Under the pieces are notes generated by a model that was not told the origin of the DNA, did no database searches, and saw only the letters and a program-made list of their open reading frames with translations. Positions 12,190-61,919 of a stretch of DNA of 64,000 nucleotides are shown here, piece by piece. Location of the stretch: the IMG/VR virus record IMGVR_UViG_3300033747_000014. One strand, written 5' to 3'. The position numbers were made by a program, and so were the translations under genes. Source of the stretch: a virus (taxonomy: Duplodnaviria; Heunggongvirae; Uroviricota; Caudoviricetes). Numbering within the stretch: position 1 is the stretch's first letter; each line of letters starts with the position of its first letter.

Positions 12190-12261
12190 ATGGTAGTAGT
12201 TCAGTGATAGAACACCATGTTTGGGACATGGGGGTCGTAGGTTTGATCCCTACCTACCATA
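12190..12261 (+). tRNA. tRNA-Pro (anticodon TGG)
   Basis: Manual cloverleaf: acceptor ATGGTAG/CTACCAT, D-stem GTTC/GAAC, anticodon stem CCATG/CATGG with loop TTTGGGA, T-arm GTAGG-TTTGATC-CCTAC. Confidence 0.7.
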
Positions 12262-12293
12262 CTAATAATCAAATAATTAGATTATTTGAGATG

Positions 12294-13785: not shown

Positions 13786-13871
13786 GCTGCGTTATACAAG
13801 TGGACAAAGTACTCAGACCTTCACTCTGATGTCTATTATGACTTCGAGGGGTTCGAATCCCCCACGCAGTA
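13786..13871 (+). tRNA. type-II (long variable arm) tRNA-like gene, anticodon loop CCTTCAC (nominal TTC), identity unresolved
   Basis: Acceptor GCTGCGT/ACGCAGT, anticodon stem TCAGA/TCTGA, variable arm GTC-TATTAT-GAC, T-arm GGGG-TTCGAAT-CCCC. C at position 33 and a poorly formed D-arm are non-canonical. Confidence 0.4.
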
Positions 13872-13881
13872 CAATATAAAT

Positions 13882-13959
13882 GGTTATGTGTGCTCGACTG
13901 GCGTGCGGGATATGGACTGTCACTCCATAAAAACGAGGGTTCGAATCCCTCCATAACCG
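13882..13959 (+). tRNA. tRNA-Asp (anticodon GTC)
   Basis: Acceptor GGTTATG/CATAACC, anticodon arm ATGGA-CTGTCAC-TCCAT, T-arm GAGGG-TTCGAAT-CCCTC. D region is 4 nt longer than canonical. Confidence 0.5.
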
Positions 13960-13977
13960 CTTAAAAAAATATTAATC

Positions 13978-14460: not shown

Positions 14461-15675
14461 ATGTTGAAAGCTATTAAAATAAGATTATACCCTAATAATG
14501 GTCAAGAGATTTATATGAATAAACTTCTTGGTTCTTATAGATTTGTATATAATCAATCTCTTAATTTTGCAATTCAACAATATAAAGAAGATAAAAAATC
14601 TGTAAATATTAAGATATTAGGTAATTTTTTATTTCAAAATCTTTTAAAAAATGAAGAACTTCACTTTCTTAATGAACACAATACTAAAGTATTAAATCAA
14701 ACACTAATAAATCTATTAGATTCATATAAAAGATTTTTTATTAATGGAAATGGATTTCCTAAATTTAAATCGAAAAATAATAATCAACAATCTTGCAGGT
14801 TCCCTGCACAAGCAATTAGTAAAAATAATGATTATGAATCAGGAAGATTAACATTAACTAAACAATTAAAGAATCTAAAATTTAGATGTTCAAAACAATA
14901 TAAAAAACAATTAAATGAATCAATAGTTAAATCAGCAACGTTAACTAAAACTAAATCTAATAAATATTATCTATCTATATTAGTAGAAACTGAATTAAAT
15001 AAACAATTACCAGAATCTAATAATATTATTGGTATTGATTTAGGAATTAAAGATTTTATTATCACTTCCGAAGGTGAAACCTTCGACAATATTAAAATCA
15101 AACGAAACAATCAAAAGAAGATTGCTAAATTACATAGAAAATTAAGTAGAAAGAAAAAAGGAAGTAATAATAGAAACAAGGCAAAAATTAAATTAGCAAA
15201 ATATTATGAAAAACTAAACAATAAGAAAGAATATTATTTACATAAAATTAGCAATAAATTACTAAACGAAAACCAAGTTATAGTAATGGAGTCTTTAAGT
15301 GTAAGTAATATGGTTAAGAATCATAAATTAGCTAAATCTTTACAAGAACTTAGTTTATATAGATTTAAGGAAATCTTAAGATATAAATCTAGTTGGTATG
15401 GAAGAGATTTAGTAGAAATAGATAGATGGTTTCCTTCAAGTAAATTATGTAATAACTGTGGATATAAGAATAATGGTTTGACTTTAAAGGATAGGACATG
15501 GATATGTCCAGAATGTAGTAAAAGTCATGATCGAGATATTAATGCAGCAATAAACATAAAGAAAGAGGGAATAAAGATATTAACAAATAAAGTACCTGAT
15601 AGTATCGGGGAATTAACGCTTCAGGAGAGTAGTCTGTTAGGATCTCGAAGAATGAAGAAGAATAATTTTCTATAA
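14461..15675 (+). mobile_element. tnpB: IS200/IS605-family TnpB (OrfB) RNA-guided nuclease gene, copy 1
   Basis: 404 aa. RuvC-I IGIDLGIKDF, RuvC-II VIVMESLSV, zinc ribbon CNNCGYKN...CPECSKSHDRDINAAINI with RuvC-III Asp. No adjacent tnpA. Confidence 0.8.
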
Positions 15676-19780: not shown

Positions 19781-21502
19781 ATGTTCGACAGCAAAAGAGA
19801 AACTTTGTTTACAAAAGACGATGTTAAAAACAACAAAACATCTGTGAAAAATGGATTCCTTAATCAAGGAATGAAAGAATCGTCTATGACGACTGAATTT
19901 GGTAATGGTGCAGTAAAATACACTACCACCAATGATGATTTTGTAGATCAATTTGGTTTGATTTCAAATTATCGTAATCCAAGGGAATTTTCAGAAATTT
20001 CTAAAGATATGAGTATTCTTTGGGGTGTAAATCCTAAAGATGCTATTAAATTGGCTTTTTATATTCGTATGATTAGTCGAAAAACTCAAATTTTTGATGG
20101 TACTACAACTGAAAAGGTTCAAATCGGTCAAGGTTTGAAGCATGAAGGTATTATGAGAATGATTTGGCTTGCTGTTAATCATCCTGACGAATTTTGGAAT
20201 AATGCATATTTATATGTTGCCATTTCAAGTTGGAAAGATATTATTCAAATGTTGTCATACGACTTGCAATATAATGGTTGGGATGAAAGGAAATTGGATT
20301 GGAACAAAATGGGTAAATTAATCCTTAGTGGATTGGAAAACCCTAATACAACCAATCTTGTTAGAAAATATCTTCCAACTATTAAATCAAATAGTAAATG
20401 TAAGACTTTGGAAGCACAAGCTGATAATATTATTGGTAAATGGTTTGCAAACATTCTATTTAAAGGTGAAAATGATTCATATGCAAAATATAGGAAAGTT
20501 AAATCATCTGGTACTGCACACGAATGGCAAAAATTGATTAGTCAGGGTAAAATGCTTGATATTAATTTTGATACTGTTCATGGTCGTGCATTATCACTAA
20601 TGGTTAGTAGTAAATTCATTAATAATAATGGTCTGGGTGCTAAGTTTGATGAATGGCTTGATAAACAACCAATAATGAAATTTACTGGATATGTTTATGA
20701 ATTGTTTAAACCATTGATGAATAATTTCAATGTTGATCTTAGGAATAAGAAAGTAATCAATAAGCAATTCAAAATGCTTGTTGATCAAGTCAAGGAACAA
20801 ACAGATGTAAACAGTTCATTTATTGCTGTTCTTGATACTAGTGCTAGTATGGGTGGTTCTGTTAGCGGTTTAAACATATCTGCTATGCATGTAGCTAAAT
20901 CAATTGGTATTTATTTTAGTGAACTGTTGGAAGGAACATTCAAAAATCATTGGATTGAATTTCATAGTGAAGCTAAAATGAGACAATGGAAAGGTGAAAC
21001 ACCAGTAGATAAATATATTAATGATAATAGTAGTTATGTCGGTAGTACTAACTTCTTAGATGTTGCCAGAGTATTTATAGATATTAAAAATAAAGGTGTT
21101 TCAGAAGATGAATTTCCTACTGGTATTGTTTGTATTAGTGATGGGAATTTTAATCAAGCGAATGATTATGGATACATGAGTCGTAAGAATGGTAGTCATG
21201 AAACAAATACTAAGCATTTTAAAGAAATGTTGTTGAGTGCTGGATTTACGCAAGAATTTGTGGATAATTTTAAAATTGTTCTGTGGGATATTCCAAATAA
21301 TTTCTATGGTGGTGAAATTGAATCAAAATTTGAAGACTTTGCTGATGCGCCAAATCTTTATTATATGAGTGGTTTTGACCCAAGTGCTTTGAGTTTCCTG
21401 CTTGGTTCTGTCGACCAAAAAGACAAACCAACACCTAAGAATGCAAGAGAGTTGTTTGAAGCAGCAATGGATCAAGAGATTTTGAATTTTATTAATATTT
21501 AA
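19781..21502 (+). CDS. vWA-domain protein with helical N-terminal region (Ro60/Rsr TROVE-like architecture, putative)
   Basis: 573 aa. MIDAS motif VLDTSASMGG near residue 345 then a vWA-like region. N-terminal ~340 aa alpha-helical. Size and domain order match Ro60-type proteins. Sequence match to TROVE not verifiable by eye. Confidence 0.4.
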   Translation: MFDSKRETLFTKDDVKNNKTSVKNGFLNQGMKESSMTTEFGNGAVKYTTTNDDFVDQFGLISNYRNPREFSEISKDMSILWGVNPKDAIKLAFYIRMISRKTQIFDGTTTEKVQIGQGLKHEGIMRMIWLAVNHPDEFWNNAYLYVAISSWKDIIQMLSYDLQYNGWDERKLDWNKMGKLILSGLENPNTTNLVRKYLPTIKSNSKCKTLEAQADNIIGKWFANILFKGENDSYAKYRKVKSSGTAHEWQKLISQGKMLDINFDTVHGRALSLMVSSKFINNNGLGAKFDEWLDKQPIMKFTGYVYELFKPLMNNFNVDLRNKKVINKQFKMLVDQVKEQTDVNSSFIAVLDTSASMGGSVSGLNISAMHVAKSIGIYFSELLEGTFKNHWIEFHSEAKMRQWKGETPVDKYINDNSSYVGSTNFLDVARVFIDIKNKGVSEDEFPTGIVCISDGNFNQANDYGYMSRKNGSHETNTKHFKEMLLSAGFTQEFVDNFKIVLWDIPNNFYGGEIESKFEDFADAPNLYYMSGFDPSALSFLLGSVDQKDKPTPKNARELFEAAMDQEILNFINI

Positions 21503-34155: not shown

Positions 34156-35463
34156 ATGAAATTAAAAAAACCAGAAAATCAAAATTATTCAGCAATAGTT
34201 GTTGAATTGAATCGTTTTGTAGATTTAGAAAACTGTGATAATGTGAAAGCTGCCATTATCATGGGTAATCAAGTGATAGTATCAAAAGATACACAAGAGG
34301 GTGAAATAGGTGTTTATTTTCCTGTTGAATCACAATTATCACATGAATTTGTATCAAATAACAATCTTTATAGACATTCAGATAATAATGTAGATATAAA
34401 TAAAAGAGGTTATTTTGAAGATAATAGACGTGTTCGATGTGTAAAATTTAGAGGTAATAAATCTGAGGGTATGTATATTCCTTTAGAGTCTCTTAAATTT
34501 GTTTTGGGTGATAAAATAAAAGAACTCAAAGTTGGTGATGAGTTTGATGAGTTAGAGGGTGTAAATATTTGTAAAAAATATGTTATTAAAAAGAAAGAAT
34601 CAAATCCAACATCAAAAAAGAATAAAGGTAAGAAAGCAAAAGAAAGTAAAATTATTGAAAATCAGTTTAGATTTCATGATGATACTGTTCAATTGTACAG
34701 GAATTTACACAAAGTAAATTTGGATGATTATATCTCTATATCTTATAAGATCCACGGAACATCCAGCATTAGTAGTAAAGTGTTATGCAAGAAGAAATTA
34801 AATATTGTTGAGAAAGCATTGAAAACTTTAGGAGTAAATATTGTTGATAAACAGTATGATAATCTTTATGCTTCAAGAAGAGTTATTAAAAATGAGGATT
34901 TAAACCCTCAAGCTGAACATTATTATGGTGAAGATATTTGGGGTCTTGCAAATGAAAGATTGAAAGATGTTCTTTTAGATGGAATGACTATCTATTATGA
35001 AATTGTTGGTTTTACACCAACAGGTACACCAATTCAAAAAGGATTTGATTATGGGTGTAGGGATGGTCATTTTGAAATTTATGTTTATAGAATCACTTTT
35101 ACAAATCCATCTGGAAATGTTTTTGAGTTCTCTTTTAAACAAATGGAAGAATGGTGTAAATCCAGAGATATAAAAACTGTACCATTGTTGTTTTATGGAA
35201 CAGTTAAAGATCTCTTCATAAAAAATCATAAAGAAATTCCAGAAGATGATCGTGATTGGAGAGATACATTCTTACAAATATTGAAAGACAATTATAATGA
35301 AAAGAATTGTTATATGTGTTTAAATCCTGTTCCAGAAGAAGGTTGTGTTGTTAGGATTGAAAAATTGGATTTTGAAGGATATAAATGCAAATCTGAAAGA
35401 TTTTATAATTGGGAAACAAAGATGTTAGATAAAGGTGAATCTGATATTGAAAGTGAAAATTAA
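34156..35463 (+). CDS. ATP-dependent RNA ligase (Rnl2/Rnl5-like nucleotidyltransferase domain with N-terminal extension)
   Basis: Motif I SYKIHGTSS (KxHGT), motif IV EGCVVRIEKL, motif V EGYKCKSERF. Confidence 0.5.
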   Translation: MKLKKPENQNYSAIVVELNRFVDLENCDNVKAAIIMGNQVIVSKDTQEGEIGVYFPVESQLSHEFVSNNNLYRHSDNNVDINKRGYFEDNRRVRCVKFRGNKSEGMYIPLESLKFVLGDKIKELKVGDEFDELEGVNICKKYVIKKKESNPTSKKNKGKKAKESKIIENQFRFHDDTVQLYRNLHKVNLDDYISISYKIHGTSSISSKVLCKKKLNIVEKALKTLGVNIVDKQYDNLYASRRVIKNEDLNPQAEHYYGEDIWGLANERLKDVLLDGMTIYYEIVGFTPTGTPIQKGFDYGCRDGHFEIYVYRITFTNPSGNVFEFSFKQMEEWCKSRDIKTVPLLFYGTVKDLFIKNHKEIPEDDRDWRDTFLQILKDNYNEKNCYMCLNPVPEEGCVVRIEKLDFEGYKCKSERFYNWETKMLDKGESDIESEN

Positions 35464-40190: not shown

Positions 40191-40889
40191 ATGAATTTTT
40201 TAATACAAACAATAAATGGTGAAGTTAAATATGATTTTTCTTTCACATTATTACAATCGATTGAATATCAAAATTGGTTAACTCCTGATTCAATTTCTTA
40301 TAAATTATCTGATGATTTCAATGAACCTAATTATATCCCTATTGGTAGTGTGGAATTTGTTTCATCTTATTTAGAAACTTTTTATGGTCGAAAACCAAAA
40401 CCTAAAAACATACCATATGATTTGATGGACGAATATTTCACCGGAAGAAAAGTTTTAAACGGTACAAATATTAATTTAAGTAAAGGAAATAGAAAATTTG
40501 TTAAATCAAATGATACTATCAAATCGTTTACTGAATTAACAGATGAAGCCCCTGTTGGTAATTATCAAATATCAGATATTGTTAATTTTGAATCTGAATA
40601 TCGATGTTTTGTATATAAAAATGAATTAGTGGGATTACAACATTATTTGGGTGATTTTACAATATTTCCAAACATATCTAAAATAAAGGATATGATATAC
40701 CATTATAAAACTAATGCTCCAGTAGCATACACATTAGATGTTGGTATTTTATCTAATTCGGAAGATACTGTGGTAGTTGAAGTTCACGATTTTTTTAGTT
40801 GTGGATTATATGGGTTTTCAAATTACAAAATATTACCATTTATGTTTTCAAGATGGTTTAATGAGTTCATAAACAAAAAAAACACTTAG
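40191..40889 (+). CDS. hypothetical protein
   Basis: 232-aa ORF, last plus-strand gene before the strand switch. Confidence 0.4.
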   Translation: MNFLIQTINGEVKYDFSFTLLQSIEYQNWLTPDSISYKLSDDFNEPNYIPIGSVEFVSSYLETFYGRKPKPKNIPYDLMDEYFTGRKVLNGTNINLSKGNRKFVKSNDTIKSFTELTDEAPVGNYQISDIVNFESEYRCFVYKNELVGLQHYLGDFTIFPNISKIKDMIYHYKTNAPVAYTLDVGILSNSEDTVVVEVHDFFSCGLYGFSNYKILPFMFSRWFNEFINKKNT

Positions 40890-46903: not shown

Positions 46904-49207
46904 TTATCCTATGTTTAAATCTTCTATATTAATTAAACCAAATTCTGGATGATAAACTTTATCGAATCGAATATATGGTGTGTTTGATTTTTTTCCATAT
47001 ATTCTTAAATGATCTATTGTTAAATTTTTAAATTTATATTTGTTCTTTGTAAGTTCAGAGTAATCAAAGTTTTTATTTGTTGATAAAAACTCAATTGTTT
47101 TTTTCATCTTTTTTAATGTGTTTGAATCCTCATTAAAATCTTTTACAAATGAATTATATATTGTTGTATTAAAAGGCCCAACAAATTCATTTTTATTATA
47201 ATGTTTAACAATACAAAAAATTTCATTACCGTTACATCTTAGTTTATTACTTCCAGCACTAATAATATTATTGTCTTCATTTTTACTTTTAAACTTAAAA
47301 GGATATATATTTTTCAATCGATCTGAACTTTCAATAAACATTTGATTAAAAAGTATTTTCCTTTTATTTTTATATTTTGTTGTGTGTGAGTTATATATAT
47401 CATATAATTCATTTAAGGTTAATTCTCTGTTATTATATTGCTTCATTTCATCATACCATAAATCTCGTAAATATTCTTTATAAAAAATCCCAACAACAAA
47501 ATCATTGGATTTATTATTTTCTTTAAAGATAGTATAAATACTCTGTTCAGAAAAATTACCAAATCTGTTACATCTTCCAAGTCTTTGCATAGATGCTTCT
47601 GGTGATAATACTGATTCATATAATTTGTTGAATGATACGTCTAAACTAGCTTGCATAATTAAAGAACTAGTAACTGAAACTTTATTTGTATTATTACCAC
47701 TGTATTTGTTAAATTTTGAAAAAATTTCATTATAAATATCATTCTTTCGTTCATCAACAAAACCACTATGATATAAAATTTGTGAGTTTGTATTAGCTTT
47801 GATCCTTTGTGAATTTGAGATAGTATTTGAAATAACAAGGTCTGAACCTTTTAAATCATAATTAAATTCTTTTTGTACCCTAATTAAATATTTATCGTTG
47901 TGTTTTGCTTCATAATGTTCATGTTTATTTGGTAAAATAGATGTTTGATTATTAATTGTGTCCCAAAAATATTCAATATTTATTGGTGTTGCTGATAACA
48001 ATAAGTTATTACTATTAGTGTATCTATGTCTCATTCTCATAATATTAATAAAATTTGAGAATATTGGTAGTGTAGATATAAATTCATGATATTCATCGAA
48101 AACAACATTAGCTGATAATATTGTAAACAATCTTTTACTAATATTATCTTTAAAAGTTGGAGATTCAAAATTATCAATATTTGTAATTATTATATCACTA
48201 TTAAAAACATCATCATTATCATGATTCTTTTCTAAAACAGTATTATTTAAAAACAATTCAATTTTAACATTAGTTTCTTTAAATTCTTTTAATTCGTTTA
48301 GAATTGAATCGTATACACTTTTAGCTACGACATTTCTAGGACAAACCCATATAGTTTTTTTATTTGATTTTGAAGCCCAAAGCATACCCAGCAATGTTTT
48401 ACCGAAACCTGCAGGTGCTTTAATTATTGTCGTTTTTTTACATTGTTTAACTATTTCTTTTTGTTTATTAAATCTATTTATATTTGAGTCACCATATGGA
48501 AAATTATTTAAATTTAAATTTTCCTTCTTATACAATTCTATTTTTACATATTTGATATATAAATTTAAATATTCTTCTTTAGATAGATCCAATTCTAAAT
48601 ATGTTTCTTCTAATTCAGAAATTATTTTATCAGCATTAACAATACAAGTGTGAGTAATTCCAAATATTTCATTATAATCATCGTTAATTATATTCTCATC
48701 ATCATAAATGTAATACGATGGTGATTTTTTCGGATTAAATTCAGGATTTTTTAAATAGGTTTCATCTAATAATTCAGATACAATCTGTCTCATTAAATCA
48801 ATAGAATCTTCTGAAACAAATTCAGATTCTAAAATATCATTTGATGTATATTTTGACATTTTTTTTGAAATCCCATGATGCCAATAAATATTATTAATTA
48901 TATATTTTTTTAAATTTGAATTAATTTTTAAATGTTCATGTAAAAAAGCCCAAGCAATTTCATTATGTGCGAATTTATTATCTTTATATTTCTTGTCTTT
49001 TTTATTTGTTGATAAAATTTCTTGAAACATCTCAGTCATTTTACCAATATCATGTAACAATGAGGATATTTCGATAATTTTTAAAATATTATTATCAATA
49101 TTATTAGTAATATATTTGTAAAGATATCTACTTGCAATAGAAACATTTTTATTATGTTTTAACAATTTAATACCGTTACTTTTTGCCAATGCATCATGAA
49201 TATTCAT
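46904..49207 (-). CDS. cas3: Cas3 HD nuclease / SF2 helicase
   Basis: N-terminal HD motifs LLHDIGK, FAHNEIAW, WHHG. Helicase Walker A APAGFGKT, DExH FDEYHEF, motif III SAT, motif VI QRLGRCNR. Confidence 0.85.
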   Translation of the reverse strand: MNIHDALAKSNGIKLLKHNKNVSIASRYLYKYITNNIDNNILKIIEISSLLHDIGKMTEMFQEILSTNKKDKKYKDNKFAHNEIAWAFLHEHLKINSNLKKYIINNIYWHHGISKKMSKYTSNDILESEFVSEDSIDLMRQIVSELLDETYLKNPEFNPKKSPSYYIYDDENIINDDYNEIFGITHTCIVNADKIISELEETYLELDLSKEEYLNLYIKYVKIELYKKENLNLNNFPYGDSNINRFNKQKEIVKQCKKTTIIKAPAGFGKTLLGMLWASKSNKKTIWVCPRNVVAKSVYDSILNELKEFKETNVKIELFLNNTVLEKNHDNDDVFNSDIIITNIDNFESPTFKDNISKRLFTILSANVVFDEYHEFISTLPIFSNFINIMRMRHRYTNSNNLLLSATPINIEYFWDTINNQTSILPNKHEHYEAKHNDKYLIRVQKEFNYDLKGSDLVISNTISNSQRIKANTNSQILYHSGFVDERKNDIYNEIFSKFNKYSGNNTNKVSVTSSLIMQASLDVSFNKLYESVLSPEASMQRLGRCNRFGNFSEQSIYTIFKENNKSNDFVVGIFYKEYLRDLWYDEMKQYNNRELTLNELYDIYNSHTTKYKNKRKILFNQMFIESSDRLKNIYPFKFKSKNEDNNIISAGSNKLRCNGNEIFCIVKHYNKNEFVGPFNTTIYNSFVKDFNEDSNTLKKMKKTIEFLSTNKNFDYSELTKNKYKFKNLTIDHLRIYGKKSNTPYIRFDKVYHPEFGLINIEDLNIG

Positions 49208-52889: not shown

Positions 52890-53075
52890 TTAAAAAAGAT
52901 CGATTTGATTGCCACTTCTAGGTTGCACATTGATAATATCTGAATCACCATCAGATATTTTTGTTATTTCTAATCTACCAAAACTTTCTTTACAAGTATA
53001 TCGATCTTCACCAATATAGATAATTACTTGTTTAACTTCTTGAGGTGTTTCATCTCTTTCTACTCTGATTTTCAT
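52890..53075 (-). CDS. hypothetical protein
   Basis: 61-aa ORF. Confidence 0.25.
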   Translation of the reverse strand: MKIRVERDETPQEVKQVIIYIGEDRYTCKESFGRLEITKISDGDSDIINVQPRSGNQIDLF

Positions 53076-53087
53076 AGTTTTTTAAAT

Positions 53088-53339
53088 TTATTTATTAAAC
53101 ATATTGAAATATTTATTATCCTTGGAGTCAACTTCTTTTGATTTGATTAGTTCTGGATACAATTCATCCACAACTTTAATAGAGGGGTCTATTGATGTTT
53201 CAACAAACACATCATGATTTTTAACTGTAATATATCGATCCATCTTATTAAAAAATCTAATAGCATTAGCTTTTCTATAAGATTTTACATATAGTTTCTC
53301 GTTATTGATTATTGTTGAGTATATTCTTTGTCTTGCCAT
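53088..53339 (-). CDS. hypothetical protein
   Basis: 83-aa ORF. Confidence 0.3.
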   Translation of the reverse strand: MARQRIYSTIINNEKLYVKSYRKANAIRFFNKMDRYITVKNHDVFVETSIDPSIKVVDELYPELIKSKEVDSKDNKYFNMFNK

Positions 53340-53345
53340 AATGAT

Positions 53346-53549
53346 TTAATTTTCTTGAATAATTCTTTTCATATATAATTTATATTCGACTCTATTATGG
53401 GGTTCACCATAAGTGTTCCATTGTTCAACAATTCGTTCATTAACTGAAAAGATTTCCCATCTTTCAGCACCAAATTTATCCATTTCCATAGCGATTTCAT
53501 AATCATTTGGATCTTCAAGATATATTATTCTTATTTCATATTCCCACAT
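53346..53549 (-). CDS. hypothetical protein
   Basis: 67-aa ORF. TATGTTTG-type box on minus strand at ~53575-53590. Confidence 0.25.
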   Translation of the reverse strand: MWEYEIRIIYLEDPNDYEIAMEMDKFGAERWEIFSVNERIVEQWNTYGEPHNRVEYKLYMKRIIQEN

Positions 53550-53628
53550 AACTAATTTGTTTTATGATTAATAAGTACAAACATATAATATAAAATTTAC
53601 AACACCAAATAATAATAGTTAAAAGATG

Positions 53629-53669
53629 TAAAAAAAACACCTCATAAAATATAAATTCTATGAGGTGTT
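53629..53669 (-). terminator. intrinsic terminator (minus strand) downstream of the interrupted tRNA
   Basis: AACACCTCATA...TATGAGGTGTT hairpin followed on the minus strand by a T7 run. Confidence 0.6.
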
Positions 53670-53692
53670 TTAAAAAGGAAAAAAACAAGTTG

Positions 53693-53814
53693 TGGAGATG
53701 GTAGGATTCGAACCCACGACCACGTGCTCCCAATGCAAGTTTTTGATATGCTGTTAATAATCTTAAAAACAGATTATATTAAAATACGTGCTCTACCACT
53801 GAGCTACATCTCCA
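53693..53814 (-). tRNA. tRNA gene with ~49-nt internal insertion (putative intron); anticodon unresolved (TAA/TTA/TTT candidates)
   Basis: Minus strand: acceptor GGAGATG ... CATCTCC-A, D-arm GCTC-AGTGGTA-GAGC, T-arm GTGGG-TTCGAAT-CCTAC. A 49-nt AT-rich insert between D-arm and T-arm contains a 7-bp hairpin ATAATCT-GTTTTTA-AGATTAT and is bounded by GAGCACGT direct repeats. Confidence 0.55.
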
Positions 53815-54024
53815 ATTTTAATAAAACAAATATAAGGTATTTTATTTTCTTATGCAAGGAATTTTAAATAAAAAGCATAAGAAAATATAAAAATACAGAT
53901 ATAAATAGTAATACTCATAATAATTTCAGTTTTTTTTAAACACTCATTATTTGAGGATGTTCTAAATAATAATAACTCTTTTAAATATCTCAAGAATAAT
54001 TTAATAATTATCATAACTTTAAAT

Positions 54025-54426
54025 TTAAATTAATTTTTTAATTGCTTTACGTAAACCTTTGTCTAATGCTTCTTCGTAAGTTTTAAATTCTTTAGCACTA
54101 GAATTATCATTAAAATAATCACATCTCGGTGGATTATAAAAAAAATCATAATAATATTTACCACGATCAGTAACACATACTTCAACAATAATATTATATT
54201 TTTCTCTTAATTCTTTTTGAAGTTCATATAAAGTAAATGCATGAATATCATCTTCATAACCATCACCACCATATTGTATTTTCCTCGGTTTGGTTTTATA
54301 ATGAGTTTTGTTATATTTATATTGATTCAATTGATAATATTTATAATCATCAATATCAGTATAATTACCATTAATCCCATGTTCTTTTGCTACTTTAGCA
54401 GTTTTAAAACTTACAAATTCAAACAT
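54025..54426 (-). CDS. hypothetical protein (paralog of 36777..37196)
   Basis: Shared N- and C-terminal motifs with the 36.8-kb gene. Confidence 0.35.
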   Translation of the reverse strand: MFEFVSFKTAKVAKEHGINGNYTDIDDYKYYQLNQYKYNKTHYKTKPRKIQYGGDGYEDDIHAFTLYELQKELREKYNIIVEVCVTDRGKYYYDFFYNPPRCDYFNDNSSAKEFKTYEEALDKGLRKAIKKLI

Positions 54427-54430
54427 AATT

Positions 54431-54787
54431 TTAAATTTTTTCTGTTGTTATATATTTATCGAATTCTAAATAATTTTCATTAAATTCAAATCCATCTAAT
54501 TCTATTAATTTAACTCCAGATGTACCATCCAAAGCAATAAACCCTTCAATTTTTTCAAACTCTTTAATTATACCGTTTATATTTAAATAGTTGTAATAAG
54601 AAGTTAATTTTATAATTTCCAAACTATATTTGATCAATAGTTCATCAATAGGGTTTTCATAATAATCATAATCCCATGAATAAAAATCTAAAAGTGTTTT
54701 TGCTGATTCTTCAGTAAATAGTTTTTCATCTACTAAAAAAACAATCTTAGCTTCATCTGATCCATACTTAAAAACATATTTTTTCAT
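54431..54787 (-). CDS. hypothetical protein
   Basis: 118-aa ORF. Confidence 0.3.
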   Translation of the reverse strand: MKKYVFKYGSDEAKIVFLVDEKLFTEESAKTLLDFYSWDYDYYENPIDELLIKYSLEIIKLTSYYNYLNINGIIKEFEKIEGFIALDGTSGVKLIELDGFEFNENYLEFDKYITTEKI

Positions 54788-58083: not shown

Positions 58084-59070
58084 TTAATTAGTTTTAATGA
58101 AATATTCTTCTAATTCTCTATTCCAAGACAAAGATAATTCATTATTTGGTAATAATTTAATATTATTGATTTTATTTTCTTCTTTTACTTTTTTCATCAT
58201 ACCTGTAAAATCTCCAAAATTCCAATTTAAAATAATTGGTGTTTTTAATGGTATCAAACTATTTTTTACAAACCCAAATTGTAAATCATTTTCAATAATA
58301 GATATATTATGAGCGTTGGAAAAATATTCGTGAATAGAATTAAATAAATTCAGTATATGCTCATCATCCAATCTATTTTCTTTAGCCCATTTAATTTTTT
58401 TATTAACAACTGAAAAATCATCAACTTCTAAGATAGGACTAAATTTGATTGAATCACATGAATCTTTAATATTATTGTAAAAAGTAAGAAGATCTTTTAG
58501 ATTATCATTATTGCTTTTAAAAATATTATTATTAATTCTTAAATTAACATTATATTTTTTTGCATCAAGATATATTCTTCTAATATCACCTAATGATATA
58601 TAATGATTTGTATTGTTTATTTTTTGTTGTTGGTCTTTAAATTGACTCATATAAGAGATATTAATATGAGTCAAACCGCTTTCAAATAATTCTTTTCTAT
58701 ATTTTTCATCATTAGCCAATCTAATACCATTAGTTGTCATGACAATCTTATCTAAGAGATTAATATCACTTAACCACTTGATTAGTGGTATTAAATGTTT
58801 ACTAACAGTTGGTTCACCACCTAACAACAATACTTCATTTACATTCATTTTTTCAATTGCATATAATATTTTTTCTTTAAAAATATTAATATCACAATTC
58901 AACTTATTATGAATTAAATCTGCAATACAAAAATTACAATTTGAATTGCAATGATCAGTTAGAACAATGTCCAAATAAGGGTGTTTATTTAACAAATATG
59001 TTTTATTATTATTAAATGTTGAATATTCGTTTTCACCAAATTTAAATATTTCAAAATCTTCAATTTTCAT
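58084..59070 (-). CDS. radical SAM domain protein
   Basis: CxxxCxxC cluster HCNSNCNFC near N-terminus and VLLLGGEPT glycine-rich SAM-binding motif. Confidence 0.6.
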   Translation of the reverse strand: MKIEDFEIFKFGENEYSTFNNNKTYLLNKHPYLDIVLTDHCNSNCNFCIADLIHNKLNCDINIFKEKILYAIEKMNVNEVLLLGGEPTVSKHLIPLIKWLSDINLLDKIVMTTNGIRLANDEKYRKELFESGLTHINISYMSQFKDQQQKINNTNHYISLGDIRRIYLDAKKYNVNLRINNNIFKSNNDNLKDLLTFYNNIKDSCDSIKFSPILEVDDFSVVNKKIKWAKENRLDDEHILNLFNSIHEYFSNAHNISIIENDLQFGFVKNSLIPLKTPIILNWNFGDFTGMMKKVKEENKINNIKLLPNNELSLSWNRELEEYFIKTN

Positions 59071-60520: not shown

Positions 60521-61702
60521 TCATTGAGATCCTAACGGACTACTCTCCTGAAGCGTTAATTCGGGTGAACTAAACCCTATTTGTTTTATATTTAATATCC
60601 TTATTCCCTCTTTCTTTATATTAATCGCTGCGTTGATATCCCTATCATGACTTTTACTACATTCTGGACATATCCATGTCCTGTCTTTTAAAGTCAAACC
60701 ATTATTCTTATATCCACAGTTATTACATAATTTACTTGATGGGAACCATTTATCTATCTCCACTAAGTCTCTTCCGTACCATTTAGATTTATATTTTAAC
60801 ATTTCCTTAAATCTATATAAACTAAGTTCCTGAAGAGATATAGCTAATTTATGATTCTTAATCATATTACTTACACTTAAAGATTCCATTACTATAACTT
60901 GGTTTTCGTTTAGTAATTTATTACTTATTTCATGTAAATAATGTTCTTTCTTATTGTTTAGTTTTTCATAATATTTTGCTAATTTAAATTTACATTTATT
61001 TCTATTATTACTTCCCTTCTTTTTTCTTGATAATTCTCTATGTAATTTAGCTATTTTCTTTTTATTATTTCTTTTAATTTTAATATTATCGAAGGTTTCA
61101 CCTTCGGAAGTAATAACAAAATCTTTAATCCCTAAATCAATACCTATAGAATTATTAGATTCTGGTAATTGTTTATCTAAAGGTAAATCCACTAAAATAG
61201 ATAAGAAATATTTACCAGATTTATTTTTGGATAACGTTGCTGATTTAATTATTTTCTGATATTTATTTAATAATATTTCATCTCTTCTTGATGATTTAAA
61301 ATGAATATTTGATAATTTTCTAATTATAGTAATTCTATTACCAATAATTTTACCAATAGCATCAGATGGAAATCTACAAGATTGTTTATTATTATTTTTT
61401 GATTTAAATTTAGGAAATCCACTTCCATTCTTAAAGAAAGAATTATAAGCTTTATTAAGATCGATTAATGATTGTTGTAAGACTTTAGAATGAACATTTC
61501 TAAGCCATTCATATTCAGATTTAAGTTCAACTAATTTTTTACCTTGTTCTCCGAAGGAGACTGATTTATTATTAGAATTATATTCTTCTATACGATAAGC
61601 TAAGATATTATTATAAACAAATCTGGAACAACCTAAAAGATTACTAACGTAATCAGATTGTTCAGGATTTAGATATAATCTTATTTTAATAGCTTTAAGC
61701 AT
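60521..61702 (-). mobile_element. tnpB: IS200/IS605-family TnpB (OrfB) gene, copy 2 (inverted relative to copy 1)
   Basis: Start placed at MLKAIKIRLY as in copy 1. C-terminal ~270 aa are ~90% nt-identical to copy 1. RuvC and zinc-ribbon residues conserved. N-terminal third is divergent. Confidence 0.8.
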
Positions 61703-61919
61703 ATAGTATATTATTTTTATACTTATAAATAGTATTGAATTCAAAAAAAATATAAGATATTCATTATATTTTCAAAATATTTCTTTATTTATGTGATGTT
61801 TAAATAATACTTGTATAATTCATACAATCCTCAGTCATCATATCAATACTTAACAATTTACCATGTTCTTTAATAAATTCGATTGTGGTTTCTTCTTTAC
61901 AAATAATAAGTTCCATAAT

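What the first reader, a model, noticed from the sequence alone, without database searches (positions are those of the whole stretch)
53693..53814. Minus-strand tRNA gene interrupted by a ~49-nt AT-rich insertion
Acceptor stem, D-arm and T-arm are canonical, but about 49 nt separate the D-arm from the variable/T region. The insert has a perfect 7-bp hairpin ATAATCT-GTTTTTA-AGATTAT and is bounded by GAGCACGT direct repeats. A canonical anticodon arm cannot be drawn. Candidate anticodons are TAA, TTA (ochre-reading) and TTT. Small non-group-I insertions in bacterial or phage tRNAs are unusual. If spliced or if the hairpin is the anticodon arm, this could be a suppressor or an anticodon-nuclease-resistant tRNA.
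Basis: seen in the sequence. Interest (0 to 1): 0.6.

Follow-up and report, generated by a model that had tools for sequence, protein, structure and literature searches.

The report
Phage Y-RNA-like tRNA mimic
The "interrupted tRNA" is most likely not a broken or intron-bearing tRNA: it is a tRNA-shaped small RNA with a built-in docking module for a phage Ro60-like protein, which probably also explains the long "pseudo-tRNAs" seen in many large phages.

Summary
The 121-nt element (minus strand, 53813..53693) is real. Rfam's tRNA model scores it 53.7 bits, with about 50 nt looped out.

A canonical anticodon arm can be drawn. Removing 49 nt from the 5' strand of the anticodon stem (after nt 28/29) gives a perfect 73-nt tRNA-Pro(UGG).

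The same architecture recurs in at least 72 distinct viral RNAs, including KVP40-like phages, Aeh1/Ah1, CBB and cyanophage B3. The inserted hairpin covaries and is followed by a near-invariant ACAGCAA.

In 29 of 59 viral loci the RNA lies on the same strand as a Ro60-like gene, usually 40-1200 nt upstream of it. The window encodes that protein at 19781-21502; its predicted fold matches Ro60 over the full length. In bacteria, analogous long tRNAs sit beside rsr, or beside RtcB and a WYL regulator. In two bacterial tandem arrays they overlap YrlA model hits in circularly permuted register.

Best reading: a Y RNA of the tRNA-mimic (YrlA-like) kind that keeps tRNA order, a free acceptor end and an anticodon-like loop. 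The insert is the Ro-binding module.

Decoding is unlikely. An ordinary tRNA-Pro(UGG) is present in the window. Relatives carry Ser, Leu or Tyr triplets without long variable arms, A34 triplets or irregular loops.

This is a new variant of a known kind. Protein binding and RNA processing are untested.

The parts
53693..53813 (-). Whole 121-nt tRNA-shaped RNA gene, from the acceptor 5' end to discriminator A73. No CCA is encoded.
   Evidence: Rfam tRNA 53.7 bits. Family covariance model R1 100.7 bits, E 5e-23. Sequence read.
53807..53813 (-). Acceptor stem, 5' strand GGAGATG. It pairs with 53694-53700.
   Evidence: 7/7 Watson-Crick pairs. All 7 pairs covary in the family.
53790..53804 (-). D arm GCTC-AGTGGTA-GAGC.
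   Evidence: The sequence matches the D arm of the Rfam YrlA consensus shown.
53787..53788 (-). First two bases (CG, tRNA nt 27-28) of the anticodon stem. They pair with 53723-53724.
   Evidence: Both pairs covary: 97-98% of cells paired, 40-42 double changes in 72 sequences.
53738..53786 (-). 49-nt insert in the 5' strand of the anticodon stem, proposed as the Ro-binding module. The junction is ambiguous by one T.
   Evidence: Deleting it restores a canonical tRNA-Pro(UGG). The same position (after nt 28/29) is found in about 40 viral relatives.
53757..53777 (-). Hairpin P2 of the insert: ATAATCT-GTTTTTA-AGATTAT.
   Evidence: All 7 pairs show changes on both sides in relatives; 90-93% of cells paired. 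It is also kept in the minimum-free-energy fold.
53749..53754 (-). Conserved single-stranded motif ACAGCA (family consensus ACAGCAA) just 3' of P2. It occupies the position that GNCGAA(N)G holds in YrlA.
   Evidence: C61, G63, C64 and A65 are invariant in 24 sequences. The motif is present in most of the 72 distinct members. Its role as a protein contact is inferred.
53725..53737 (-). Anticodon-like hairpin TGC-ATTGGGA-GCA. The triplet UGG is at 53730-53732, with U33 and G37.
   Evidence: The inner two pairs covary. 61 of 72 relatives have a 7-nt loop, 56 of those with U33 and all 61 with a purine at 37.
53701..53717 (-). T arm GTGGG-TTCGAAT-CCTAC.
53634..53671 (-). Intrinsic terminator: 17-bp stem followed by a T run, 22 nt after the RNA's 3' end.
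   Evidence: one site found against 0.2 expected.
53839..53868 (-). Weak sigma-70-like promoter match (TTTAAA-18-TAAAAT) about 25 nt upstream.
   Evidence: Such matches are no more frequent than in shuffled sequence, so this is only a suggestion.
19781..21502 (+). Ro60-like protein (573 aa; Pfam DUF2828 and DUF7788; alpha-helical ring plus vWA/MIDAS domain). Proposed protein partner.
   Evidence: The top 7 Foldseek hits in the PDB are all Ro60/Rsr over the full length. hhalign against bacterial Ro60: probability 87%, E 4e-6 over the vWA domain. Homologues are annotated 'Ro-like RNA binding protein' in mycobacteriophages. Homologues lie next to the RNA in 26 viral loci.
34156..35463 (+). Rnl2-family RNA ligase. 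It is a possible functional companion, by analogy with the rsr-yrlBA-rtcBA RNA-repair operon; no link has been shown.
   Evidence: PHROG 968 'RNA ligase'. Pfam RNA_ligase PF09414 plus the PHA02142 OB domain.
12190..12262 (+). Ordinary tRNA-Pro(UGG). It is not part of the element; it shows that the triplet is redundant.

Best explanation
The element is a phage-encoded Y RNA of the tRNA-mimic (YrlA-like) kind, in tRNA gene order.

Proposed structure: the transcript folds into a complete tRNA body, with a free 7-bp acceptor stem, D arm, T arm and an anticodon-like stem-loop reading UGG. A 49-nt side module branches out of the anticodon stem between nt 28 and 29/30. The module consists of a short A-U helix (tentative), an internal loop carrying ACAGCA, and a 7-bp hairpin.

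Proposed function: the module is the docking site for the phage's Ro60-like ring protein, encoded at 19781-21502. The tRNA-like body is the effector end. It would either present a tRNA look-alike to tRNA-binding enzymes or anticodon nucleases (as a decoy or competitive inhibitor), or tether the Ro-like protein to an exoribonuclease or RNA-repair enzyme, as Y RNAs do in Deinococcus and Salmonella.

Shown here: the fold with covariation, the conserved motif, the gene linkage, and the Ro60-like fold of the protein.

Inferred: RNA-protein binding, the effector role, and the absence of splicing and decoding.
For: 1. Structure. On 24 sequences, 96.1% of cells pair, against 65% in shuffles and about 40% when the partners are slid. 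On 72 distinct sequences the figure is 96.6%. All 7 pairs of the inserted hairpin and the split anticodon stem covary.
2. A conserved ACAGCAA follows the hairpin directly.
3. Family size. 59 viral loci have a model R1 hit of at least 64 bits. Many carry 2-5 copies, as bacteria carry several Y RNAs.
4. Linkage. 29 of the 59 loci hold a Ro-like gene (26 loci) or a classical Ro60 gene (3 loci) within the fetched stretch. All 29 are on the same strand as the RNA, and in 24 the RNA lies 37-1200 nt upstream of the gene. In Aeh1, three such RNAs lie 2.5-2.8 kb downstream of the Ro-like gene on the same strand.
5. The window protein is Ro60-like by predicted fold, by profile comparison and by its annotated homologues.
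6. In bacterial genomes, long tRNAs with an insert at the same position lie next to rsr in about 28 loci, or next to RtcB and a WYL regulator. Some of these inserts carry GCCGAAG and GUUAYC, matching the published YrlA motifs GNCGAAN0-1G and YUAY (PMC4201824).
7. In L116 and L080 (bacterial tandem arrays upstream of rsr) the Rfam YrlA model aligns to these elements in circularly permuted register (31-44 bits; E 1e-8 in the restricted scan, up to 6e-3).
8. Against decoding. An ordinary tRNA with the same anticodon is present in the window and in 7 other tRNA-rich loci. Family triplets include Ser, Leu and Tyr types with only a 5-nt variable loop, and A34 triplets. 11 of 72 members have loops that are not 7 nt. 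Orthologous Flavobacterium loci differ, TTT against TCT.
Against: - In the window itself the RNA is about 32 kb from the Ro-like gene and on the opposite strand. Relatives keep the two adjacent.
- The Rfam YrlA model scores the window element only 14.6 bits (gathering score 69, E 7.5). It gives only weak hits on tandem phage copies (23.7-33.5 bits).
- The window has ACAGCAU where YrlA has GNCGAA.
- The anticodon-like loop is strikingly canonical: U33 in 56 of 61 and a purine at 37 in 61 of 61 (the alignment was fitted to the model). The stem becomes perfect after excision. A plain protein tether does not obviously need this.
- There is no expression, binding or processing data.
- 30 of the 59 loci show no Ro-like gene, although the stretches fetched are short.
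Confidence: 0.7

Rival explanations
1. It is a functional tRNA-Pro(UGG) gene with a new kind of small intron in the anticodon stem. The 49 nt would be cut out, by a phage or host endonuclease or by the RNA itself. The nick, bridged by the 3' strand of the stem, would then be sealed by the phage Rnl2-type ligase (RtcB in bacteria). The product would be a 73-nt decoding tRNA.
For: - Excision gives a perfect cloverleaf with a 5-bp Watson-Crick stem, U33 and G37.
- The same holds for about 40 relatives with many different triplets.
- Some close relatives change the triplet synonymously: GGT to TGT (Thr), TTC to CTC (Glu).
- An Rnl2-family ligase is in the window, and RtcB is next to the bacterial versions.
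Against: - No self-cleaving ribozyme or group I match was found in or around the insert (E up to 10).
- No splicing endonuclease is known in bacteria (stated in 10.1101/312249).
- The triplet is redundant with an ordinary tRNA in 8 of the 21 loci checked; those 8 include most of the tRNA-rich ones.
- Ser, Leu and Tyr triplets occur in bodies with a short variable loop. A34 triplets, and loops of 4-16 nt, occur in members that are otherwise well conserved.
- The insert's conserved features track a Ro-like protein gene, not a nuclease.
Confidence: 0.12
2. It is a tRNA-shaped decoy or sensor that works without the Ro-like protein. For example, it could soak up a host anticodon nuclease or a tRNA-modifying enzyme, with the insert only stabilising the RNA or blocking its entry into the ribosome.
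For: - The anticodon-like loop is well kept, and its triplets vary between related phages, as might be expected in an arms race.
- In the window the RNA has its own terminator and lies far from the Ro-like gene.
- Hughes et al. proposed that the YrlA tRNA-like domain may inhibit an anticodon nuclease (PMC7790460).
Against: This does not explain why the insert has a conserved motif, nor why the RNA genes lie directly beside Ro-like genes on the same strand in 29 loci. It is also compatible with the main explanation, as the role of the effector end.
Confidence: 0.1
3. It is a dead tRNA gene: a pseudogene disrupted by a small mobile insertion flanked by the 8-nt repeat GAGCACGT.
For: Genome papers and records label such genes as pseudo-tRNAs (PMC3468402, PMC1524935). 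A direct repeat flanks the insert in the window.
Against: - All helices, including the split stem, are kept by compensatory changes across 72 distinct sequences.
- The repeat is absent in most relatives.
- The element has its own terminator.
- The insert is conserved in different tRNA bodies and is linked to a specific protein gene.
Confidence: 0.03

Closest known systems
YrlA (Y RNA-like A; Rfam RF02553; Chen et al. 2014, PMC4201824; Wang et al. 2018, bioRxiv 10.1101/312249)
   Same: - A tRNA-mimicking domain with tRNA-like D and T arms and an acceptor stem.
- A separate module on the anticodon-stem side next to a conserved single-stranded motif. In YrlA this motif is tied to Ro60 binding.
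- Genetic linkage to a Ro60-type gene on the same strand.
- Several copies per genome, and presence in phages.
- The circular order of the elements is the same: D arm, stem, Ro module, YUAY, small hairpin, T arm, acceptor.
   Different: - YrlA is circularly permuted. Its 5' and 3' ends lie in the Ro-binding stem, and its acceptor stem is closed by a loop. It is described as lacking a free CCA end and an anticodon loop.
- Here the ends are in the acceptor stem, as in a real tRNA. The Ro-type module is closed by a hairpin loop, and a canonical 7-nt anticodon-like loop is present.
- The motif is ACAGCA(A), not GNCGAAN0-1G.
- The partner protein is of the divergent DUF2828/DUF7788 type.
- The Rfam model scores the window element 14.6 bits against a gathering score of 69.
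Deinococcus radiodurans Yrn1 (Rfam RF01053)
   Same: A Y RNA with tRNA-like features in D, anticodon-arm, T order. It binds Rsr and tethers it to PNPase (as summarised in PMC4201824).
   Different: In Yrn1 the 5' and 3' ends form the Ro-binding helix at the place of the acceptor stem, the loop has 6 nt, and the D arm is doubtful. Here the Ro-type module is an internal branch of the anticodon stem and the acceptor stem is free.
Intron-containing and permuted pre-tRNAs of archaea and algae (bulge-helix-bulge introns at non-canonical positions; PMC4090602)
   Same: There is an intervening sequence inside the anticodon stem, not at position 37/38. Removing it restores a canonical tRNA.
   Different: Those introns are defined by a bulge-helix-bulge motif cut by a splicing endonuclease, an enzyme absent from bacteria and their phages. 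Their sequences are not conserved. Here the insert has a conserved motif and hairpin and is linked to a Ro-like protein.
Group I introns in bacterial and phage tRNA genes (PMC3984707)
   Same: A tRNA gene interrupted in the anticodon arm, in bacteria or phages.
   Different: Group I introns are about 200 nt or longer, sit in the anticodon loop and have a catalytic core. This insert is 49 nt, sits in the stem, and matches no Rfam intron or ribozyme model.
Phage T4 stable RNAs, species 1 and 2 (rnaC, rnaD)
   Same: Small stable RNAs of unknown function in a T4-type tRNA region. rnaC ends in a T-arm-like element and an acceptor-like 3' end.
   Different: They have no D arm, no hairpin-ACAGCAA module and no sequence similarity. 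T4 was not among the hits.

Membership tests
YrlA (Rfam RF02553) | Scores at or above the family's gathering score (69 bits) with the Rfam covariance model. | tested here: not met
   Window 53643-53745(-): 14.6 bits, E 7.5. Bacterial relatives in L116 and L080: 31-44 bits, E 1e-8 to 6e-3. Phage tandem copies: 23.7-33.5 bits.
YrlA (Rfam RF02553) | Circularly permuted order: Ro motif, then T arm, then closed acceptor stem-loop, then D arm, with the 5' and 3' ends in the Ro-binding stem (PMC4201824; 10.1101/312249). | tested here: not met
   The order here is acceptor 5' strand, D arm, insert, anticodon-like hairpin, T arm, acceptor 3' strand. The acceptor stem is a free 7-bp helix and a terminator follows it directly.
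YrlA (Rfam RF02553) | tRNA-like D and T arms with tRNA-type conserved nucleotides. | tested here: met
   Rfam tRNA model 53.7 bits. The D arm UAGCUCAGUGGUAGAGC matches the YrlA consensus GUAGCUCAauuuGGUAGAGC shown. The search patterns selected for this D arm in the relatives, but the window sequence was not selected in this way.
YrlA (Rfam RF02553) | GNCGAAN0-1G motif, proposed for Ro60 recognition, followed by YUAY. | tested here: not met
   The window has UAACAGCAU at the equivalent place. Some bacterial relatives do have GCCGAAG ... GUUAYC.
YrlA (Rfam RF02553) | Encoded within about 4 kb of the Ro60 ortholog on the same strand. | tested here: inconclusive
   Not met in the window: the RNA is at 53.7 kb on the minus strand and the Ro-like gene at 19.8-21.5 kb on the plus strand. 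Met for the family: 29 of 59 viral loci, all on the same strand, and about 28 bacterial loci.
Y RNA (functional class) | Bound by a Ro60-family protein. | not testable with these tools
   Only gene linkage and the Ro60-like fold of the window protein are available.
Ordinary decoding tRNA-Pro | An uninterrupted cloverleaf of about 73-77 nt with a 5-bp anticodon stem. | tested here: not met
   121 nt. ARAGORN finds nothing without the intron option. With that option it returns only a poor tRNA-Gln model, with a 4-pair anticodon stem containing an A-C mismatch.
Ordinary decoding tRNA-Pro | Supplies an anticodon that the genome otherwise lacks, and has an identity consistent with its body. | tested here: not met
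   tRNA-Pro(UGG) is already present at 12190-12262. In relatives, Ser, Leu and Tyr triplets occur with a 5-nt variable loop.
Group I intron-interrupted tRNA | An intron with a group I catalytic core inserted in the anticodon loop. | tested here: not met
   The insert is 49 nt, lies in the stem after nt 28/29, and gives no Rfam intron hit at E up to 10.
Small self-cleaving ribozymes (hammerhead, twister, pistol, hatchet, HDV-like) | A match to the family covariance model. | tested here: not met
   No such family appears among the hits in 53300-54200 at E up to 10.
Archaeal-type bulge-helix-bulge tRNA intron | Both splice sites lie in 3-nt bulges separated by a 4-bp helix, and a splicing endonuclease is encoded. 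| not tested
   No such motif was obvious by eye at the two junctions. No systematic search for the motif or for an EndA-like gene was made.

The most novel reading that the evidence does not exclude
The RNA is both a Y RNA and a usable tRNA. It would be a reserve tRNA kept in a Ro-like particle, with the insert in its anticodon stem keeping it off the ribosome and perhaps shielding it from anticodon nucleases. On demand the insert would be excised and the nicked stem sealed, by the phage Rnl2-type ligase or by RtcB in bacteria. Alternatively its free acceptor end would be CCA-tailed and aminoacylated while it is still bound. This would give a protein-assisted, non-group-I tRNA splicing pathway in bacteria and phages, and a natural substrate for nick-sealing RNA ligases.
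Probability: 0.1. Interest if true: 0.9.

Novelty: new variant of a known kind. Interest (0 to 1): 0.62.

Why it matters
1. It gives a concrete, testable identity to the long "pseudo-tRNAs" reported and set aside in KVP40, phi-pp2, Aeh1, 44RR, CBB and cyanophage B3. These records annotate them as tRNA-Pseudo-GCA, a 119-nt tRNA-Ser or a 122-nt tRNA-Val.
2. It pairs a large, unnamed phage protein family with a candidate RNA partner. The family (DUF2828/DUF7788) has 2303 homologues in the protein search and hits in 537 phage records.
3. Published YrlA RNAs are circularly permuted tRNA mimics whose origin is debated. A version in normal tRNA order, with a free acceptor end and a near-canonical anticodon loop, looks like the ancestral arrangement: a tRNA that acquired a Ro-binding branch. 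It also raises the question of whether such RNAs can be CCA-tailed, charged, or cut by anticodon nucleases.
4. Practically, tRNA finders either miss these genes or mis-call their anticodon from the insert. This distorts phage tRNA inventories and claims about suppressor tRNAs.

Tried and rejected
- Megablast of 53000-54600 against the phage collection found nothing. Only a sensitive blastn search found relatives.
- ARAGORN with the intron option forces a loop intron and returns a poor tRNA-Gln(ttg). I rejected this in favour of the stem-insert model.
- I first read the conserved GCA as a Cys anticodon, as tRNAscan does for the "Pseudo-GCA" calls. I rejected this because the motif is constant while the downstream 7-nt loop varies.
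- Self-cleaving ribozyme or group I intron: no Rfam hit.
- T4 rnaC and rnaD as relatives: no D arm and no shared module.
- Target-site duplication or a MITE-like insertion: the repeat is not conserved.
- The conserved 746-aa Bacteroidota protein as a hidden Ro60: hhalign gave probability 0.3%.
- phmmer of the window protein against PDB sequences gave nothing. Only the fold comparison showed the Ro60 relationship.
- The YrlA model on tandem phage copies gave only weak hits, so sequence-level membership in RF02553 cannot be claimed.
- In L116 the "long tRNA" reading is probably an artefact of two adjacent canonical YrlA genes. I therefore do not count tandem bacterial arrays as evidence for the tRNA-ordered form.
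- A helix P1 in the insert (TTTT with AAAA in the window; AAGA/TCTT, ATGA/TCAT and GAA/TTC in relatives) was seen by eye only. I could not test it column-wise because its spacing varies.
- Nine literature searches found no paper linking phage pseudo-tRNAs to Ro-like proteins. The KVP40 genome paper and two Wolin-lab reviews are not held, so prior description cannot be excluded.
Full report
**1. What is in the sequence**

On the minus strand, 53813..53693 reads: GGAGATG TA GCTC-AGTGGTA-GAGC A CG [TATTTTAAT ATAATCT-GTTTTTA-AGATTAT TAACAGCATATCAAAAACT] TGC-ATTGGGA-GCA CG TGGTC GTGGG-TTCGAAT-CCTAC CATCTCC A.
- ARAGORN finds 14 ordinary tRNAs at 12-19 kb but not this element.
- The Rfam tRNA model scores it 53.7 bits (gathering score 29), with about 53 nt looped out of the anticodon region.
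The start coordinate is one base off.
- A strong intrinsic terminator (17-bp stem plus T run, 53671..53634) follows the 3' end. The upstream promoter-like match is weak.

**2. The anticodon arm is present but split**

Aligning relatives by eye and then by script showed that the insert does not replace the anticodon arm.
- Deleting 49 nt after tRNA position 28/29 joins CG to TGC. This gives the stem CGTGC/GCACG and the loop AUUGGGA.
- ARAGORN then calls a perfect 73-nt tRNA-Pro(UGG).
- With its intron option on the intact sequence, ARAGORN gives only a poor tRNA-Gln.
- The same operation restores five Watson-Crick pairs and a 7-nt loop with U33 in about 40 distinct viral sequences, with many different triplets.

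**3. It belongs to a large family**

A sensitive blastn search found the same architecture in several phages:
- Aeromonas phage Ah1, where it is unannotated;
- Synechococcus phage B3, annotated "tRNA-Pseudo-GCA";
- the Vibrio phage D482 group;
- Pectobacterium phage CBB, annotated as a 119-nt "tRNA-Ser".

Two pattern scans of viral contigs added many more.

Covariation supports the proposed structure:

| Measure | 24 sequences, MAFFT | 72 distinct sequences, model-fitted |
|---|---|---|
| Cells forming a standard pair | 96.1% | 96.6% |
| Same, 3' letters shuffled | 65.0% | 63.3% |
| Same, partners slid 1-3 columns | 38-41% | 39-46% |
| Inserted hairpin: pairs with changes on both sides | 7 of 7 | 7 of 7 |

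The two-base-pair foot of the stem and the inner pairs of the anticodon-like hairpin also covary. C61, G63, C64 and A65 are invariant in the 24 sequences. The family consensus just 3' of the hairpin is ACAGCAA.

A covariance model of the family, R1, scores the window element 100.7 bits. Ordinary tRNAs reach at most 52 bits, and there is only one such element in the window. The second alignment was fitted to the model and so leans towards its structure.

Copies found by the model alone were not selected by my search patterns. They have different D arms but the same hairpin-ACAGCAA module. The module therefore occurs in different tRNA bodies.

**4. What it is linked to**

Bacterial genomes. The genome scan showed inserts at the same stem position in many bacterial genomes. 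Their neighbours are telling:
- classical Ro60/Rsr (TROVE plus vWA domains) in about 28 loci from Chloroflexi, Verrucomicrobia, Pseudanabaena/Phormidium, Planctomycetota and others;
- RtcB plus a WYL regulator in Bacteroidota.

Several of these inserts carry GCCGAAG ... GUUAYC. These match the YrlA motifs GNCGAAN0-1G and YUAY described by Chen et al. (PMC4201824).

In L116 and L080 the Rfam YrlA model aligns to the same elements in circularly permuted register (31-44 bits; E 1e-8 in the restricted scan, up to 6e-3). In L116 the units are tandem canonical YrlAs, so the tRNA-ordered reading there is probably an artefact. Elsewhere the acceptor stem is a perfect 7 bp (for example L085, L099, L102, L161), and the loci scanned (L085, L098, L122, L160, L141) gave no YrlA hit, so the tRNA-ordered form appears real.

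The window protein. The window encodes a 573-aa protein at 19781-21502 that matches PHROG 850 "RNA-binding protein" and Pfam DUF2828 and DUF7788.
- Its AlphaFold model has mean pLDDT 79.6 and pTM 0.80.
- The top seven PDB matches are all Ro60/Rsr. Six align 524-584 columns at E 1e-5 to 6e-5; Deinococcus Rsr aligns 502 columns at E 2.5e-4. TM-scores are only 0.31-0.45.
- hhalign against bacterial Ro60 gives probability 87% and E 4e-6 over the vWA/MIDAS domain.
- tblastn finds homologues in 537 phage records. Some are annotated "Ro-like RNA binding protein" in mycobacteriophages, the phages in which YrlA was first reported. Others are "RNA-binding protein" in Aeh1 and GAP32.

Viral loci. Among 59 viral loci with an R1 hit of at least 64 bits:
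- 29 hold a Ro-like gene (26 loci) or a classical Ro60 gene (3 loci) within the short stretch fetched;
- all 29 have the gene on the same strand as the RNA;
- in 24 the RNA lies 37-1200 nt upstream of the gene.

In Aeh1, three tandem long RNAs lie 2.5-2.8 kb downstream of the Ro-like gene Aeh1p164. These are very likely the "3 pseudo tRNAs" of the Aeh1 genome paper (PMC1524935). KVP40 and phi-pp2 likewise list three low-scoring "pseudo" tRNAs read as GCA or TGC (PMC3468402).

**5. How it most likely works**

The simplest reading is a Y RNA of the tRNA-mimic kind. The insert (hairpin plus ACAGCAA in an internal loop) would be the docking site for the Ro-like ring protein. The tRNA body would be the effector end.

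Its circular order of elements equals that of YrlA. The break point differs. Published YrlAs have their ends in the Ro stem and a closed acceptor stem, "lack a free CCA end" and "lack the anticodon loop" (10.1101/312249). This RNA has tRNA ends, a closed Ro-type hairpin and an anticodon-like loop.

What the effector end does is inferred from published work, not shown here. Possibilities are tethering to PNPase (Deinococcus, Thermus phage phiLo; PMC4201824, PMC12135203), or competition with an anticodon nuclease within an RNA-repair setting (PMC7790460). The window also encodes an Rnl2-family RNA ligase.

**6. Why it is probably not a decoding tRNA**
- The window already has tRNA-Pro(UGG) at 12190-12262. 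The same redundancy holds in 7 other tRNA-rich loci.
- Family triplets include GCT, TGA, GGA and ACT (Ser), CAA (Leu) and GTA (Tyr) in bodies with a 5-nt variable loop. They also include A34 triplets (ATT, ATC).
- 11 of 72 members have loops of 1-16 nt that are not 7 nt.
- Orthologous Flavobacterium loci differ, TTT against TCT.
- From my own recollection of ribosome structures, the 5' strand of the anticodon stem at nt 28-30 contacts 16S rRNA in the P site. A 49-nt branch there should block translation unless it is removed. I did not check this here.

**7. What argues the other way**
- The loop is remarkably anticodon-like: 61 of 72 members have 7 nt, 56 of those have U33 and all 61 have a purine at 37.
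- The stem is perfect after excision.
- Some close relatives change the triplet synonymously.

A spliced "reserve tRNA" therefore cannot be excluded; I give it about 0.1.

In the window the RNA and the Ro-like gene are 32 kb apart on opposite strands. The Rfam YrlA model does not recognise the phage insert (14.6 bits in the window; 23.7-33.5 bits on tandem phage copies). I therefore claim that it works like a Y RNA. I do not claim that it is a member of RF02553.

**8. Novelty and limits**

Within the searchable library I found no paper that connects these phage pseudo-tRNAs with Ro-like proteins, or that describes a tRNA-ordered YrlA-type RNA. Two reviews from the Wolin laboratory and the KVP40 genome paper were not available.

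I rate it a new variant of a known kind. Everything beyond structure, conservation and gene linkage is inference. No expression, binding or processing data exist for this element.

Noticed in passing
window 13786-13872 (+) and 13882-13960 (+): ARAGORN calls an 87-nt tRNA-Glu(ttc) with a long variable region and a Ser/Leu-like D arm. The Rfam gathering scan misses it. Next to it is a 79-nt tRNA-Asp(gtc) with an oversized D arm. A class II-shaped tRNA carrying a Glu anticodon is odd.
   Followed up: partly
window 14461-15675 (+) and 60521-61744 (-): Two TnpB / IS605 OrfB-type genes (Pfam OrfB_IS605, Cas12f1-like TNB). One lies inside the tRNA cluster.
   Followed up: no
window 46904-49207 (-): A 767-aa Cas3-like protein (HD nuclease plus DEAD helicase plus Cas3 C-terminal domain) in phage-like DNA. 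I saw no CRISPR array, but I did not look for one.
   Followed up: no
window 34156-35463 (+), 40191-40889 (+), 58084-59070 (-): An Rnl2-family RNA ligase with a PHA02142 OB domain, an R2K-clade ATP-grasp protein and a radical SAM protein. These may be RNA-repair or modification functions.
   Followed up: no
L093, L094, L100, L101, L115, L121, L125, L148, L150 (Bacteroidota genomes): Long tRNA-like RNAs with a different insert (P1 - ATTA - hairpin - GGTCAAT - P1' - TTACTTC). They sit beside a conserved 746-aa protein with no Pfam match (not Ro60-like by hhalign), a WYL/WCX regulator and often RtcB. This may be a separate protein partner for the same kind of RNA.
   Followed up: partly
L116 1650-2950 and L080 5440-5910: Upstream of rsr lie dense arrays of ordinary tRNAs, a unit resembling the Deinococcus Y RNA (48.6 bits) and tandem YrlA-like units. 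In such tandem arrays both the permuted and the tRNA-ordered readings are possible.
   Followed up: partly
L071, L110, L124, L133, L142, L184 (Saccharibacteria and other Patescibacteria): These pattern hits look like a 5' tRNA fragment (acceptor, D arm and the start of the anticodon stem) fused just upstream of a complete tRNA. They differ from the Ro-type inserts.
   Followed up: no
L303 8237-8621 (Aeromonas phage Aeh1, record 96384-96770): Three tandem long tRNA-like RNAs lie downstream of the Ro-like gene Aeh1p164. One is annotated in RefSeq as a 122-nt tRNA-Val(CAC).
   Followed up: yes
L009, L012, L034, L042, L044, L045 and L011, L058, L060, L064 (viral contigs): Other long tRNAs of 100-118 nt carry unrelated inserts in the anticodon arm, for example GCGCG[TTTCATTTTGTTG...]TTTTCAT CGCGC. 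They do not belong to the ACAGCAA family and have no obvious protein partner.
   Followed up: no
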